Below are positions 40,868 to 44,675 of a stretch of DNA of 64,000 nt, one piece after another. Under the pieces are notes generated by a model, which was given only the letters and a program-made list of their open reading frames with translations, searched no databases and was not told the DNA's origin. Within the stretch, counting starts at the first letter, position 1. Each line of letters starts with the position of its first letter. The translations under genes were made by a program, and so were the position numbers. The stretch lies in assembly GCF_056712565.1 (NCBI RefSeq), contig NZ_CM160072.1, one strand, 5' to 3'.

Positions 40868-41839
40868 GTGGCACAGGAATATACTGTTGAACAACTAAAC
40901 CACGGCCGTAAAGTCTATGACTTTATGCGCTGGGACTACTGGGCTTTCGGCATCTCTGGTCTGCTGTTAATCGCCGCTATCGTTATTATGGGCGTGCGCG
41001 GCTTTAACTGGGGGCTGGATTTTACCGGTGGTACGGTTATTGAAATTACGCTCGAAAAACCGGCTGAAATTGACGTAATGCGTGATGCATTGCAAAAAGC
41101 CGGTTTTGAAGAGCCGATGCTGCAAAACTTTGGTAGCAGCCACGACATCATGGTCCGTATGCCGCCTGCTGAAGGCGAAACCGGCGGTCAGGTGTTGGGC
41201 AGCCAGGTTCTGAAGGTGATTAACGAATCCACCAATCAGAATGCGGCAGTGAAGCGTATTGAGTTCGTCGGTCCGAGCGTGGGGGCAGACCTTGCGCAAA
41301 CCGGTGCGATGGCGTTGATGGCGGCGCTGCTGTCTATCCTCGTGTACGTAGGTTTCCGCTTTGAGTGGCGACTGGCGGCAGGGGTTGTTATTGCGCTGGC
41401 GCACGACGTTATCATTACGCTGGGTATTTTGTCGTTATTCCATATCGAGATTGACCTGACCATTGTGGCATCATTGATGTCGGTTATCGGTTACTCGCTT
41501 AACGACAGTATCGTGGTATCGGACCGTATTCGTGAAAACTTCCGCAAGATCCGTCGCGGTACGCCTTACGAAATCTTTAACGTGTCCTTGACCCAGACGC
41601 TGCACCGTACCTTGATCACATCCGGTACTACCTTGATGGTTATCCTGATGCTGTACCTCTTCGGTGGTCCGGTACTGGAAGGCTTCTCGCTGACCATGCT
41701 TATCGGTGTTTCCATCGGTACTGCATCTTCCATCTATGTGGCATCTGCGCTGGCTCTGAAACTGGGTATGAAGCGCGAACACATGTTGCAGCAGAAAGTG
41801 GAAAAAGAAGGGGCGGATCAGCCGTCAATTCTGCCTTAA
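40868..41839 (+). CDS. secF: protein translocase subunit SecF
   Basis: GTG at 40868 gives [31 protein letters not shown]... (323 aa); ORF-track start 40823 would overlap secD. Confidence 0.93.
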
Positions 41840-41860
41840 TCAAGTTTCAGCTGATGTTGA

Positions 41861-41891
41861 AAATCCCGGTAAGAAGATCGGGATTTTTTTT
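41861..41891 (+). terminator. rho-independent terminator after secF
   Basis: AAATCCCG-loop-CGGGATTT followed by TTTTTT. Confidence 0.75.
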
Positions 41892-41968
41892 GATGTAAGG
41901 TGATTGCGAAAATCCCCGCATCTTGGGAAACTGCGCGTAACCCTACATTTCATCCAGGTAACTTTTTC

Positions 41969-42316
41969 ATGGCTATCATCCCAAAAAACTATGCGCGGTT
42001 AGAAAGCGACTATCGCGAAAAAGCATTAAAAATCTATCCGTGGGTCTGCGGTCGCTGTTCCCGCGAGTTTGTTTATTCCAACCTGCGTGAACTTACCGTT
42101 CACCACATTGATCACGACCATACTAATAACCCGGAAGATGGCAGTAACTGGGAATTACTTTGTCTCTATTGCCACGATCATGAGCATTCGAAATACACCG
42201 AAGCGGATCAGTATGGTACGACCGTTATCGCAGGGGAAGATGCGCAGAAAGATGTCGGTGAAGCGAAGTACAACCCATTCGCTGATTTGAAAGCGATGAT
42301 GAACAAGAAGAAGTGA
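41969..42316 (+). CDS. yajD: small HNH-nuclease-family protein YajD
   Basis: ATG at 41969 gives MAIIPKNYARLESDYREKALKIYPWVCGRCS...HHIDHDHTNNPEDGSNWELLCLYCHDHEH (115 aa): HNH His-rich core between two Cys pairs. Confidence 0.85.
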   Translation: MAIIPKNYARLESDYREKALKIYPWVCGRCSREFVYSNLRELTVHHIDHDHTNNPEDGSNWELLCLYCHDHEHSKYTEADQYGTTVIAGEDAQKDVGEAKYNPFADLKAMMNKKK

Positions 42317-42350
42317 TAAAAAATGCCGGATATGAAATCCGGCATTCTCA
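42317..42350. terminator. bidirectional terminator hairpin between convergent yajD and tsx
   Basis: AATGCCGGAT-loop-ATCCGGCATT perfect 10-bp stem flanked by A-run upstream and T-rich downstream. Confidence 0.7.
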
Positions 42351-42353
42351 CAA

Positions 42354-43238
42354 TTAGAAGTTGTAACCTACTACCAGATAACCACCCCAGCCGGTAGAGC
42401 GAACGTTGAAGTTGCCGTTGCCGAAGTTCAGTTCTGCATCGTCATTCCACTGACCACCGTTATGCCAGTAACGGGCAACGACAGAGTAGTGCCAGTGATC
42501 GTAATTCAGCGCCAGAATATGGCTGGACGCAATAGAGTTATTGGTACGTGTTTTAATACCGTTGTTCGCATAACCGCTGTCATCGCCCAGGTCGGAACCC
42601 CAGTCGAAGTTGGTGAAGCCGATGTAGCTCAACTGGCCGCCCCACAGATCGGTAATCGGCACAAAGTACTTCACTTTGAAACGGTAACCGTCCCACTCGT
42701 TTTCGTTCGCTGCGCCGTAGTTCTGCCACTGGTATTTCGCATAGACGTTCATGGACAGGCTCATCGGCAGACCAGTATCGATGTCGGTACCCAGACCCAT
42801 GTACCAGGTGCTCTGGCGGCCATCTTTATTACGACCCATGTCGTAAATGTAGTTGTTCGCGAAGTACCACTCTTTGAACGGACCGAAGCTAAGGTCAGTA
42901 TTGGTCAGCTTGTCAATGGAGAAACGCGGTTCGATTTCCATAAACAGCGGAGAACCGTGGTTCCAGATACCTTTTGCATCGGAGTTACCGCCGAAGAATA
43001 CCGGCGCATCCGCATAACCATAGAAGTCGAACCAGTCTTTTTTAGCGAATGCTTCGTACTCAAGGTAGGTATCGTTGCGGAGCTGCGGTCCGAAACGGGT
43101 GTGATAGCTTCCGACAACGTTAACGCTCTGGTGCCACCAGTCGGAAAGATACTGCGGTTTGTCGTTTTCAGCTGCGTTGACAGTAAAAGACGAAGAGAGC
43201 GCCAGTACCGCACCGGCTGCCAGTAATGTTTTTTTCAT
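42354..43238 (-). CDS. tsx: nucleoside-specific outer-membrane channel Tsx
   Basis: Start at 43238 gives [22 protein letters not shown] signal peptide; C-terminal ...YLVVGYNF beta-barrel signature. Confidence 0.95.
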
Positions 43239-43535
43239 ATGTATGCCACTGTTTGAAAATCCCTTGCGGGAGTGAAAAAGGCGCAAATTGCGTTTCTAAA
43301 TATTTCGTATACAGAGGAGCCTATTATAAAAATCATTGCTCACAAAAATATGTTTCGTTTCACAGTTCTATCATTTACGTAATCGATTGCGTTCACGTTT
43401 ACACACATTCGGGCGGGGATTGTACTGACTTTCACCCTTGTTGCAAACTTTTACTATCAATCCAGGTGATGTAAGCGGAGTAACAAAATGACGGGGAAGA
43501 TGTTGCGGGACGCACAATATCGCCCCGCAATACGT

Positions 43536-44075
43536 TTACTGCATAACAGGTTGAATGTCGTGGATACGTACAAAGCCTAACTGATCCACAGACATACCCT
43601 TTAACTGTAACGGAATATCAACATCGCTGGGGGCGAGGACGCTGGCAGGTGCGTTAATCAATTGATTCTGCACATTGATTTCCTGAAAGTTGTCTATTGT
43701 TCCCTGAATTTGCCCATATTCAACGGTTCCGCTGAATGCGGGTAAAGGGTCATTAGATTCGCCCTGAATACGTAGCGTCAGGGTGGTGCCATCTGTATCA
43801 GGCGTAATATTCACCAGCGACATACGTAAAGTACCGATCTGGCTTTCCAGTCTTGCTGGTGTTTTTGCTCCAGGCAGAAGGTAAACCCCACTGCTGGATT
43901 TTGCATTCAGCCTGTTTTGCTGAGTGATTTTGACCGTTTCTTTATTGAGCTGCGTCATCTCCTGGTTCAGCGTGCTGACGCTGTGTTTCATCTGTCGCAC
44001 TTCACTTTGCTGCACACAGGCGCTAAGGCTGAACAGGCTTCCCAGCAGGAGCAGTCGAAAAACGTTAGTATTCAT
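43536..44075 (-). CDS. yajI: lipoprotein YajI
   Basis: Start at 44075 gives MNTNVFRLLLLGSLFSLSACVQQ (lipobox LSAC); 179 aa. Confidence 0.88.
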   Translation of the reverse strand: MNTNVFRLLLLGSLFSLSACVQQSEVRQMKHSVSTLNQEMTQLNKETVKITQQNRLNAKSSSGVYLLPGAKTPARLESQIGTLRMSLVNITPDTDGTTLTLRIQGESNDPLPAFSGTVEYGQIQGTIDNFQEINVQNQLINAPASVLAPSDVDIPLQLKGMSVDQLGFVRIHDIQPVMQ

Positions 44076-44189
44076 AGGTCGTCCCTTTCTCGTCGCAATT
44101 AGCCTAATGGTAGAGGGTAAAAGCAGTGAAAGCATCGATCCTTTATCTCAAAAGCGTTGCGCCTTTGTTGTATCGTCAGTTCAGGGTAA

Positions 44190-44675
<486 letters not shown>

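What the first reader, a model, noticed from the sequence alone, without database searches (positions are those of the whole stretch)
41969..42316. Stand-alone small HNH-motif protein (yajD) with no obvious partner
The 115-aa product carries a compact HNH core (HHIDHDHTNNPEDGSNWELLCLYCHDHEH) bracketed by Cys pairs (CGRCS ... CLYCH), i.e. a zinc-stabilised HNH nuclease fold. It has its own terminators on both sides and no adjacent immunity, restriction or toxin-antitoxin partner gene. Function is unknown to me.
Basis: partly seen in the sequence, partly recalled or inferred. Interest (0 to 1): 0.3.

Follow-up and report, generated by a model that had tools for sequence, protein, structure and literature searches.

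The report
Known orphan HNH nuclease gene yajD
This is the already annotated E. coli gene yajD, a small zinc-stabilised HNH nuclease-like protein of unknown function; it is ordinary as a finding, but the family is unusually conserved, has no partner gene anywhere, and ends in a conserved peptide that looks like a docking motif.

Summary

Three points go beyond the annotation:
- A variable linker is followed by a conserved C-terminal peptide, [ST][HY]xPFAxLxx[LM][LM].
- The core is acidic.
- The closest solved fold, ZRANB3, is an HNH domain followed by a C-terminal clamp-binding motif.

My best guess, which is inferred, is a restrained housekeeping nuclease targeted through its tail. No published function was found. 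It is a known gene of low to moderate interest.

The parts
41969..42316 (+). yajD coding sequence (115 aa plus stop)
   Evidence: ORF list and sequence. RefSeq annotation at the same coordinates. NF008448 at 207 bits, Pfam HNH at E 1e-12.
41990..42034 (+). N-terminal helix, residues 8-22, with near-invariant Y15, R16, A19, L20, K21
   Evidence: AF2 model from alignment A3. Conservation.
42047..42058 (+). First CxxC pair (C27, C30) of the inferred structural Cys4 zinc site
   Evidence: Invariant in A3. Pairs with C65 and C68, as in four-Cys HNH proteins such as ZRANB3 and T4 endonuclease VII.
42092..42187 (+). HNH beta-beta-alpha-metal core, residues 42-73 (LTVHHIDHDH...SNWELLCLYCHDHEH). Includes H45, H46, D48, H51, N60, H69, H73 and the second CxxC pair (C65, C68, nt 42161-42172).
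   Evidence: Pfam HNH covers residues 27-75. Strands 42-46 and 61-65 and helix 66-82 in the model. These residues are invariant or at least 90% conserved. Aligns to the T4 endonuclease VII HLDHDH...CNLCN segment.
42215..42265 (+). Variable, predicted-disordered acidic linker, residues 83-99
   Evidence: Block-mean pLDDT 50-52 over residues 81-100; only 90-92 fall below 50. Mean column entropy 2.4 bits against 0.7 in the core. Length and composition vary, and it is Gly/Ala/Ser-rich in Betaproteobacteria.
42266..42304 (+). Conserved C-terminal peptide, residues 100-112 (KYNPFADLKAMMN). Family motif [ST][HY]xPFAxLxx[LM][LM].
   Evidence: L107 is invariant, and P103 and F104 are at least 90% conserved (A105 slightly less), in A3. 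The motif is kept in 105 of 119 betaproteobacterial homologues. A short helix is predicted at 107-112.
41859..41896 (+). Upstream intrinsic terminator of secF (hairpin plus T run), which insulates yajD from secDF
   Evidence: Terminator scan. Fold dG -15.7 kcal/mol, z -3.8.
42322..42346 (.). Bidirectional terminator hairpin shared by yajD (+) and tsx (-)
   Evidence: Folds on both strands with z -5.1 and -6.2. A yajD terminator was confirmed in vitro (PMC12207403).
41953..41968 (+). Leader with a weak Shine-Dalgarno-like CCAGGTAAC. The CAGGTAA element recurs upstream of yajD in other Enterobacterales that have unrelated flanks.
   Evidence: Upstream alignments.

Best explanation
Identity (shown): this is yajD, the E. 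coli member of the YajD family of free-standing 110-125 aa HNH proteins of Beta- and Gammaproteobacteria. It is a single gene bounded by terminators.

Anatomy (sequence shown, structure predicted):
- an N-terminal helix;
- a beta-beta-alpha-metal HNH core held together by a Cys4 zinc site (C27, C30, C65, C68);
- a His-rich active site, H45-H46...N60...H69...H73 plus D48 and H51;
- an acidic disordered linker;
- a conserved C-terminal peptide, PFAxLxx[LM][LM].

Mechanism (inferred): YajD is a catalytically competent, divalent-metal-dependent nuclease. On its own it binds nucleic acid poorly, because its core is acidic, and so it is harmless without an immunity protein. It acts as a housekeeping nicking or structure-specific endonuclease only where its C-terminal peptide docks it onto a conserved cellular hub protein encoded elsewhere in the genome. 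The likely setting is DNA damage or replication and repair intermediates. This is analogous to ZRANB3, whose HNH domain is followed by a C-terminal clamp-binding motif.

Likelihoods: identity about 0.98; an active nuclease about 0.6; the tail as a partner-docking motif about 0.4; the whole chain about 0.35.
For: Identity.
Active site retained: C27, C30, H45, H46, N54, G58, N60, W61, C65, C68, H69 and H73 are invariant, and D48, H51, D70 and E72 are at least 90% conserved, down to 40% overall identity. The spacing HH-14-N-9-H-4-H (intervals between residue numbers) nearly mirrors colicin E9 H102/H103-N118-H127-H131, which is 15-9-4, so the first interval is one residue longer. This is my own reading; the E9 sequence was verified.
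Housekeeping rather than selfish: 5424 of 5426 E. coli genomes, median one place per genome (highest 2); dN/dS 0.02-0.05.
No cis partner.
Tail: low-entropy PFAxL after a high-entropy linker; the motif's distance from the C-terminus varies.
Acidic core: pI 5.7.
ZRANB3 parallel: four-Cys HNH domain, nearest folds T4 endonuclease VII and Gme HNH, and an APIM motif at the extreme C-terminus that recruits PCNA and stimulates cleavage (PMC5481773).
Damage link: Salmonella yajD single mutants have no phenotype, but cbpA/yajD and ychN/yajD double mutants are H2O2-sensitive (PMC3878590).
Confidence: 0.35

Rival explanations
1. YajD is not a working nuclease. It is a zinc- and histidine-rich HNH-fold adaptor or metal-binding protein, and the fold serves protein-protein contacts or metal handling.
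Against: All catalytic-type positions (H46, N60, H69, H73, D48) are invariant or nearly so over wide divergence. That is not expected if only the zinc scaffold mattered. The profile matches are to nuclease families.
Confidence: 0.2
2. YajD acts on RNA or at the ribosome, for example in RNA quality control or processing, and the tail docks on a translation or RNA-decay component.
For: Hu et al. 2009 assigned yajD to an orphan set linked to COG J (translation). The Keio mutant's colony sizes on tetracycline were about 0.15 of the control. A Sulfuritalea homologue lies between rho and dksA-pnp-rpsO. In E. coli it lies downstream of queA-tgt.
Against: The assignment is computational. The raw drug data are noisy: the amikacin and neomycin replicates disagree five- to ten-fold. 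The neighbourhoods are not conserved. The nearest structural relatives all cut DNA.
Confidence: 0.15
3. The conserved C-terminal peptide is not a partner-docking site. It is a degron (Lon- or Clp-type) that keeps nuclease levels low, an amphipathic membrane-targeting helix, or an intramolecular lid.
For: F104, L107, M110 and M111 have i, i+3, i+6, i+7 spacing and are followed by lysines, which would form an amphipathic helix. The tail's pLDDT is above that of the linker, which is compatible with packing on the core. A degron would explain why no immunity protein is needed.
Against: Near-invariance of P-F-A and of the preceding [ST][HY] is stricter than generic amphipathic helices need. The variable distance to the C-terminus (3-12 residues) argues against an ssrA-like terminal degron.
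Confidence: 0.2
4. yajD is a selfish or defence-derived element, such as a free-standing homing endonuclease, an orphan restriction or toxin nuclease, or a remnant of a defence system.
For: The genomic position changes between genera and includes Pantoea megaplasmids. There are domain-level matches to ZorE, McrA, Cap5 and phage HNH families.
Against: It is present, typically in single copy, at one fixed locus in 5424 of 5426 E. coli genomes. dN/dS is 0.02-0.05. No defence, immunity or mobility genes are adjacent in about 95 loci. Phage hits reach at most 51% identity and cover only core residues 27-86, with no tail. The PADLOC hits cover only the HNH part of ZorE.
Confidence: 0.04

Closest known systems
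YajD family HNH nuclease (NCBIfam NF008448 / PRK11295; E. coli b0410)
   Same: It is this family: full-length match at 207 bits and the same annotation in RefSeq.
   Different: Nothing structural differs. The family itself has no demonstrated activity or role. This strain carries D14 where most family members have G.
Human ZRANB3 HNH domain (PDB 5MKW) with its C-terminal APIM motif
   Different: ZRANB3 is a 1079-aa SNF2 translocase with an HNH insert that YajD lacks. The YajD tail does not fit the APIM consensus, and bacteria have no PCNA. Sequence identity is 19%.
Phage T4 endonuclease VII (PDB 1E7D/1EN7)
   Different: Endonuclease VII is 157 aa with a C-terminal helical dimerisation and DNA-binding domain, and it resolves Holliday junctions as a swapped dimer. 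YajD lacks that domain, and no Pfam Endonuclease_7 match was listed.
Geobacter metallireducens Gme HNH nicking endonuclease (PDB 4H9D) and phage GVE2 HNH (5H0O)
   Different: Identity is under 20%, and phmmer did not find them. They have no YajD-type tail. GVE2 HNH works with a phage terminase.
Colicin E9/E7 DNase domains
   Same: Nearly the same HH...N...H...H spacing of catalytic and metal-binding residues, 14-9-4 against 15-9-4 (my own reading; E9 sequence verified).
   Different: Colicins have no Cys4 zinc site, are basic toxins and are encoded next to an immunity gene. The profile comparison gave no alignment.
Defence-system HNH effectors (ZorE, EcoKMcrA, Cap5, PtuB)
   Same: The HNH domain matches at domain level.
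   Different: Those are multi-domain proteins or are encoded in operons with sensor or partner genes. yajD has none.

Membership tests
HNH / beta-beta-alpha-metal nuclease superfamily (Pfam PF01844) | Profile match above the curated threshold | tested here: met
   48.4 bits against a cutoff of 21.4, residues 27-75 covering profile positions 1-47 of 47.
HNH / beta-beta-alpha-metal nuclease superfamily (Pfam PF01844) | Two-strand hairpin followed by a helix (beta-beta-alpha fold) | tested here: met
HNH / beta-beta-alpha-metal nuclease superfamily (Pfam PF01844) | Conserved general-base His, structural Asn and metal-ligand His/Asn | tested here: met
   H46, N60, H69 and H73 are invariant, and D48 and H51 are at least 90% conserved, in 56 sequences down to 40% identity. 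Which residue plays which role is inferred.
HNH / beta-beta-alpha-metal nuclease superfamily (Pfam PF01844) | Metal-dependent nuclease activity | not testable with these tools
   No biochemical report was found.
YajD family (NCBIfam NF008448 equivalog) | Full-length match above the equivalog cutoff | tested here: met
   207.2 bits against 87, covering 2-113 of 113.
YajD family (NCBIfam NF008448 equivalog) | Linker plus C-terminal PFAxL peptide (a feature defined here from the alignments) | tested here: met
   NPFADLKAMM at residues 102-111. The motif is conserved.
T4 endonuclease VII-type junction resolvase | HxDHxH plus Cys4 core | tested here: met
   phmmer alignment to 1e7d, E 0.002.
T4 endonuclease VII-type junction resolvase | C-terminal helical dimerisation/DNA-binding domain and a family profile match | tested here: not met
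   YajD ends 40 residues after the core, with a disordered linker. No Endonuclease_7 Pfam hit at E of 1 or below. PHROG endonuclease VII families score only E 0.06-0.13.
Colicin/pyocin-type DNase toxin with immunity | Adjacent immunity gene and a toxin delivery context | tested here: not met
   The neighbours are secF and tsx. No conserved small neighbour in about 95 loci.
Anti-phage defence HNH effector (Zorya ZorE, McrA, CBASS Cap5, Septu PtuB) | Full-length match and co-located system genes | tested here: not met
   PADLOC hits cover only ZorE positions 200-269 of about 283. No system genes are nearby.
Free-standing homing / phage HNH endonuclease | Sporadic or multi-copy distribution in mobile DNA, with relaxed selection | tested here: not met
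   5424 of 5426 genomes, median one place per genome (highest 2). dN/dS 0.02-0.05. Phage hits reach at most 51% identity over the core only.
Clamp-recruited nuclease (ZRANB3-like HNH + APIM; bacterial QL[SD]LF clients) | Recognisable clamp-binding motif in the tail | tested here: not met
   By inspection, KYNPFADLKAMMNKKK fits neither [KR][FYW][LIVA][LIVA][KR] (as I recall the APIM consensus) nor QL[SD]LF / QLxLxL (APIM residues described). Non-canonical binding is not excluded, and actual binding was not testable.

The most novel reading that the evidence does not exclude
YajD is a bacterial counterpart of the ZRANB3 HNH module. It would be a constitutively present but harmless structure-specific nuclease, brought to stalled forks, damaged DNA or another nucleic-acid machine by a previously unrecognised docking peptide, [ST][HY]xPFAxLxx[LM][LM]. 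That peptide would bind a conserved Beta/Gammaproteobacterial hub, such as the beta clamp, SSB, RNA polymerase or a ribosomal protein. This would define both a new short linear motif and a new housekeeping nuclease pathway in E. coli.
Probability: 0.2. Interest if true: 0.6.

Novelty: already known. Interest (0 to 1): 0.25.

Why it matters
yajD is one of the remaining E. coli genes with a confident fold and no known role. It is striking that a nuclease fold is tolerated without an immunity partner, is kept under selection comparable to core machinery, and yet shows no single-mutant phenotype. If the conserved C-terminal peptide is a docking motif, finding its receptor would assign a function to a family spread through Beta- and Gammaproteobacteria. 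It could also reveal a new recruitment motif for nucleic-acid enzymes. As a genome-scan finding, however, it only re-identifies an annotated gene.

Tried and rejected
1. A sigma-32-like promoter (CTTGGGAAA-N12-CCCTACAT at 41922-41948). The consensus scan found no sigma-70 site. The element is conserved only within Escherichia; Salmonella and Kluyvera have a short GAGGA leader directly after the secF terminator. I dropped it as unsupported.
2. Conserved gene neighbourhood as a clue to function. Clustering all genes in 80 species loci gave no neighbour family with more than 10 members, and none at a fixed position. Betaproteobacterial contexts were also all different. The mrfAB-like and rho/dksA/pnp neighbours are single cases.
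3. Literature searches for b0410 (only unrelated hits), P0AAQ2 (none) and HNH plus clamp-binding motif (none).
4. Profile alignment to colicin E9 with hhalign gave no meaningful alignment. The spacing comparison therefore rests on reading the sequences.
5. The first AF2 model, from 20 close homologues, was unreliable: four of five models had pLDDT around 40, and Foldseek E-values were all above 0.03. It was replaced by a model from 56 sequences.
6. The afdb50 fold library was unavailable.
7. The listing of cluster members gave no organism names for distant homologues. Taxonomy came instead.
8. The profile hit to C2H2 zinc fingers (SALL4, E 4e-4) is a look-alike of the CxxC...HH segment, not evidence of a C2H2 finger.
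9. Rfam found nothing above threshold in 41000-44500.
10. The Rajagopala 2014 interactome paper is not held. Hu et al. 2009 lists yajD only in computational modules.

Full report
**1. What is at the coordinates.**
The window is an E. coli chromosome segment, tgt-yajC-secD-secF-yajD-(tsx)-(yajI)-nrdR-ribD-ribE-nusB. RefSeq annotates the same coordinates as yajD, "HNH nuclease YajD". The region is found in 5424 of 5426 complete E. coli genomes, with a median of one place per genome (highest 2). The ORF listing also offers a GTG-extended 138-aa form starting at 41900. The family profile aligns positions 2-113 of 113 to the ATG form, so 41969 is the start.

**2. Is it real and selected?**
Against E. 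albertii, dN/dS is 0.024. Against other enterobacterial genera the synonymous sites are saturated (pS 0.68-0.93) while pN is only 0.03-0.10. Protein identity is 65-79% to Vibrio, Photobacterium, Psychromonas, Ferrimonas and Thalassotalea. It is 40-59% to a 120-125 aa form, also named "YajD family HNH nuclease", in Burkholderiales, Sulfuritalea and Casimicrobiaceae. In a library of 1.84 billion representative proteins, 643 clusters match at E up to 1e-3 and 285 at E up to 1e-10. The gene is transcribed. A NusG-suppressed pause site was mapped inside it (PMC10268239), and its terminator works in vitro (PMC12207403).

**3. Fold and active site.**
- Profiles. Pfam HNH scores E 1e-12 and NCBIfam NF008448 scores 207 bits against a cutoff of 87. 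About 20 PHROG HNH families match. PADLOC matches only the HNH part of ZorE.
- Model. An AlphaFold2 model from 56 sequences has mean pLDDT 74, with block means of 80-90 over residues 11-70. It shows helix 8-22, strands 42-46 and 61-65, helix 66-82, a low-confidence stretch at 83-105 and a short helix at 107-112.
- Sequence. The nearest solved chain is T4 endonuclease VII (E 0.002), with HLDHDH aligned to HIDHDH and CNLCN to CLYCH.
- Conservation. R16, C27, C30, L42, V44, H45, H46, N54, G58, N60, W61, L64, C65, C68, H69, H73 and L107 are invariant across the 56 sequences. Y15, D48, H51, D70, E72, P103 and F104 are at least 90% conserved.
- Inferred roles. I read the four Cys as a structural zinc site, as in ZRANB3 and endonuclease VII. 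I read H45-H46...N60...H69...H73 as the catalytic and metal set. Its spacing, 14-9-4, nearly mirrors colicin E9 H102-H103...N118...H127...H131, which is 15-9-4. The E9 sequence was checked, but hhalign gave no alignment. These role assignments are therefore inference.

**4. Surroundings.**
- Upstream. The secF terminator hairpin at 41859-41888 is followed by a T run.
- Downstream. The hairpin at 42322-42346 folds strongly on both strands and also serves the convergent tsx gene.
- Neighbours. No immunity, restriction or toxin-antitoxin gene is adjacent.
- Other species. I called and clustered all genes in 80 species loci. The yajD cluster has 73 members. The next-largest family has 10 members and sits at no fixed position.
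- Position of the gene. The secF-yajD-tsx arrangement occurs in Escherichia, Kluyvera, Phytobacter, Pseudocitrobacter and Salmonella. Enterobacter asburiae has yajD beside paaX/paaY. Pantoea carries it on megaplasmids such as pPag1.
- Betaproteobacteria and metagenomes. The contexts all differ: PG_binding/GDSL lipase, ABC transporter/DUF3095, rho/dksA-pnp, Pterin_4a/hydrolase, and an mrfAB-like helicase and exonuclease.

The "stand-alone" description therefore holds family-wide.

**5. What the annotation does not say.**
- The C-terminus is a conserved peptide on a variable tether. Column entropy is 0.7 bits in the core, 2.4 in residues 77-99 and 1.3 in residues 100-111. L107 is invariant, and P103 and F104 are nearly so. 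The motif [ST][HY]xPFAxLxx[LM][LM] is present in 105 of 119 betaproteobacterial homologues. It lies at a variable distance (3-12 residues) from the C-terminus.
- The E. coli core is acidic (pI 5.7; K+R 9, D+E 14), while the tail is basic. That is unusual for a DNA nuclease and fits the absence of an immunity gene.
- The best structural match, ZRANB3, is an HNH domain immediately followed by a C-terminal hydrophobic motif (APIM). That motif binds PCNA and stimulates a structure-specific nuclease (PMC5481773). The YajD tail has the same Phi-x-x-Phi-Phi shape (L107, M110, M111). It does not fit the APIM consensus or the bacterial beta-clamp consensus.

**6. Function.**
- No paper in the searchable library assigns a function.
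- In Salmonella, a yajD deletion had no growth, stress or virulence phenotype. The cbpA/yajD and ychN/yajD double mutants were H2O2-sensitive (PMC3878590).
- Hu et al. 2009 list yajD as a non-essential orphan. They place it in a genomic-context module with pncA and in a computational set linked to translation. The raw drug-screen values are noisy.
- My best explanation is a competent but restrained metal-dependent nuclease targeted through its tail to a hub encoded elsewhere, probably in DNA damage or replication-repair. I put the whole chain at about 0.35.
- The rivals are a non-catalytic zinc/His adaptor (0.2), an RNA or translation-linked nuclease (0.15), the tail acting as a degron, membrane helix or lid (0.2), and a selfish or defence element (0.04). 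The last is largely excluded by distribution, selection and the lack of associated genes.

**7. Verdict.**
The observation and the interpretation are both correct. The object is an already annotated gene of a named family, so the novelty class is "already known". The open question is what a highly conserved, partnerless HNH protein with a conserved tail does. That question is genuine and testable, which keeps the interest slightly above that of a routine housekeeping gene.

Noticed in passing
window 42322-42346: One hairpin serves as a bidirectional terminator for the convergent genes yajD and tsx. The T run is strong on the tsx side and weak on the yajD side. The only Rfam matches there are below threshold (SorX, 23 bits against 46.6).
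   Followed up: partly
window 41900-41968: A GTG at 41900 extends the ORF to 138 aa in the mechanical ORF list. Family profile coverage and the RefSeq annotation show that the ATG at 41969 is the true start.
   Followed up: yes
window 42038-42136 (YajD residues 24-56): The segment PWVCGRC..EF....L..L.VHH.DH scores against C2H2 zinc fingers of SALL4 and ZBTB17 (profile E 4e-4). It is a sequence look-alike of the beta-beta-alpha finger, not a C2H2 domain.
   Followed up: partly
L087 6001-6348 (Pantoea vagans pPag1, NC_014561.1 20971-21318): In Pantoea, yajD is carried on megaplasmids (61 PLSDB records), next to an RND efflux gene and a 2-phosphosulfolactate phosphatase gene. I did not check whether the chromosome also has a copy.
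   Followed up: no
L086 (CP082688.1, Salmonella 'plasmid' pN18S0406-2): This PLSDB 'plasmid' carries queA-tgt-yajC-secDF-yajD-tsx-nrdR-ribDE-nusB-thiL-pgpA, so it is a mislabelled chromosome piece. Several 4.8-4.9 Mb E. coli 'plasmids' in the same hit list are also chromosomes.
   Followed up: partly
L086 7786-7893: Salmonella has an Ldr-family type I toxin gene inserted between yajD and tsx. The E. coli window has only the shared terminator there.
   Followed up: no
L003, L010, L017, L022, L023, L027, L030: about 100 nt upstream of yajD: Enterobacterales whose yajD has unrelated flanking genes share an upstream leader (TTCTCCTTC ... GGATATATTGG ... TCTCTTT.TAACAGGTAA ... ATGGCT). This suggests the gene moves or persists together with its own promoter and leader. 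Escherichia keeps only CAGGTAAC.
   Followed up: partly
L081-L084 (metagenome contigs): A distant YajD homologue (P0271) lies tail-to-tail with a DEAD/Helicase_C/MZB helicase and an RNase_H_2-type exonuclease, a pair resembling Bacillus mrfAB (my recollection). The arrangement recurs in four contigs of related samples.
   Followed up: no
L090 2437-7666 (Sulfuritalea MAG): Here the YajD homologue sits between rho and dksA-pnp-rpsO, a cluster of RNA and transcription genes. It is a single case.
   Followed up: no
window 42008-42010 (YajD residue 14): This strain has Asp at position 14, where the family consensus and most Enterobacterales have Gly. The position is variable (entropy 1.6 bits).
   Followed up: no
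window 41922-41948: The sequence CTTGGGAAA-N12-CCCTACAT loosely resembles a sigma-32 promoter, as I recall the consensus. It is conserved only within Escherichia and is absent in Salmonella and Kluyvera, so it is unsupported.
   Followed up: partly
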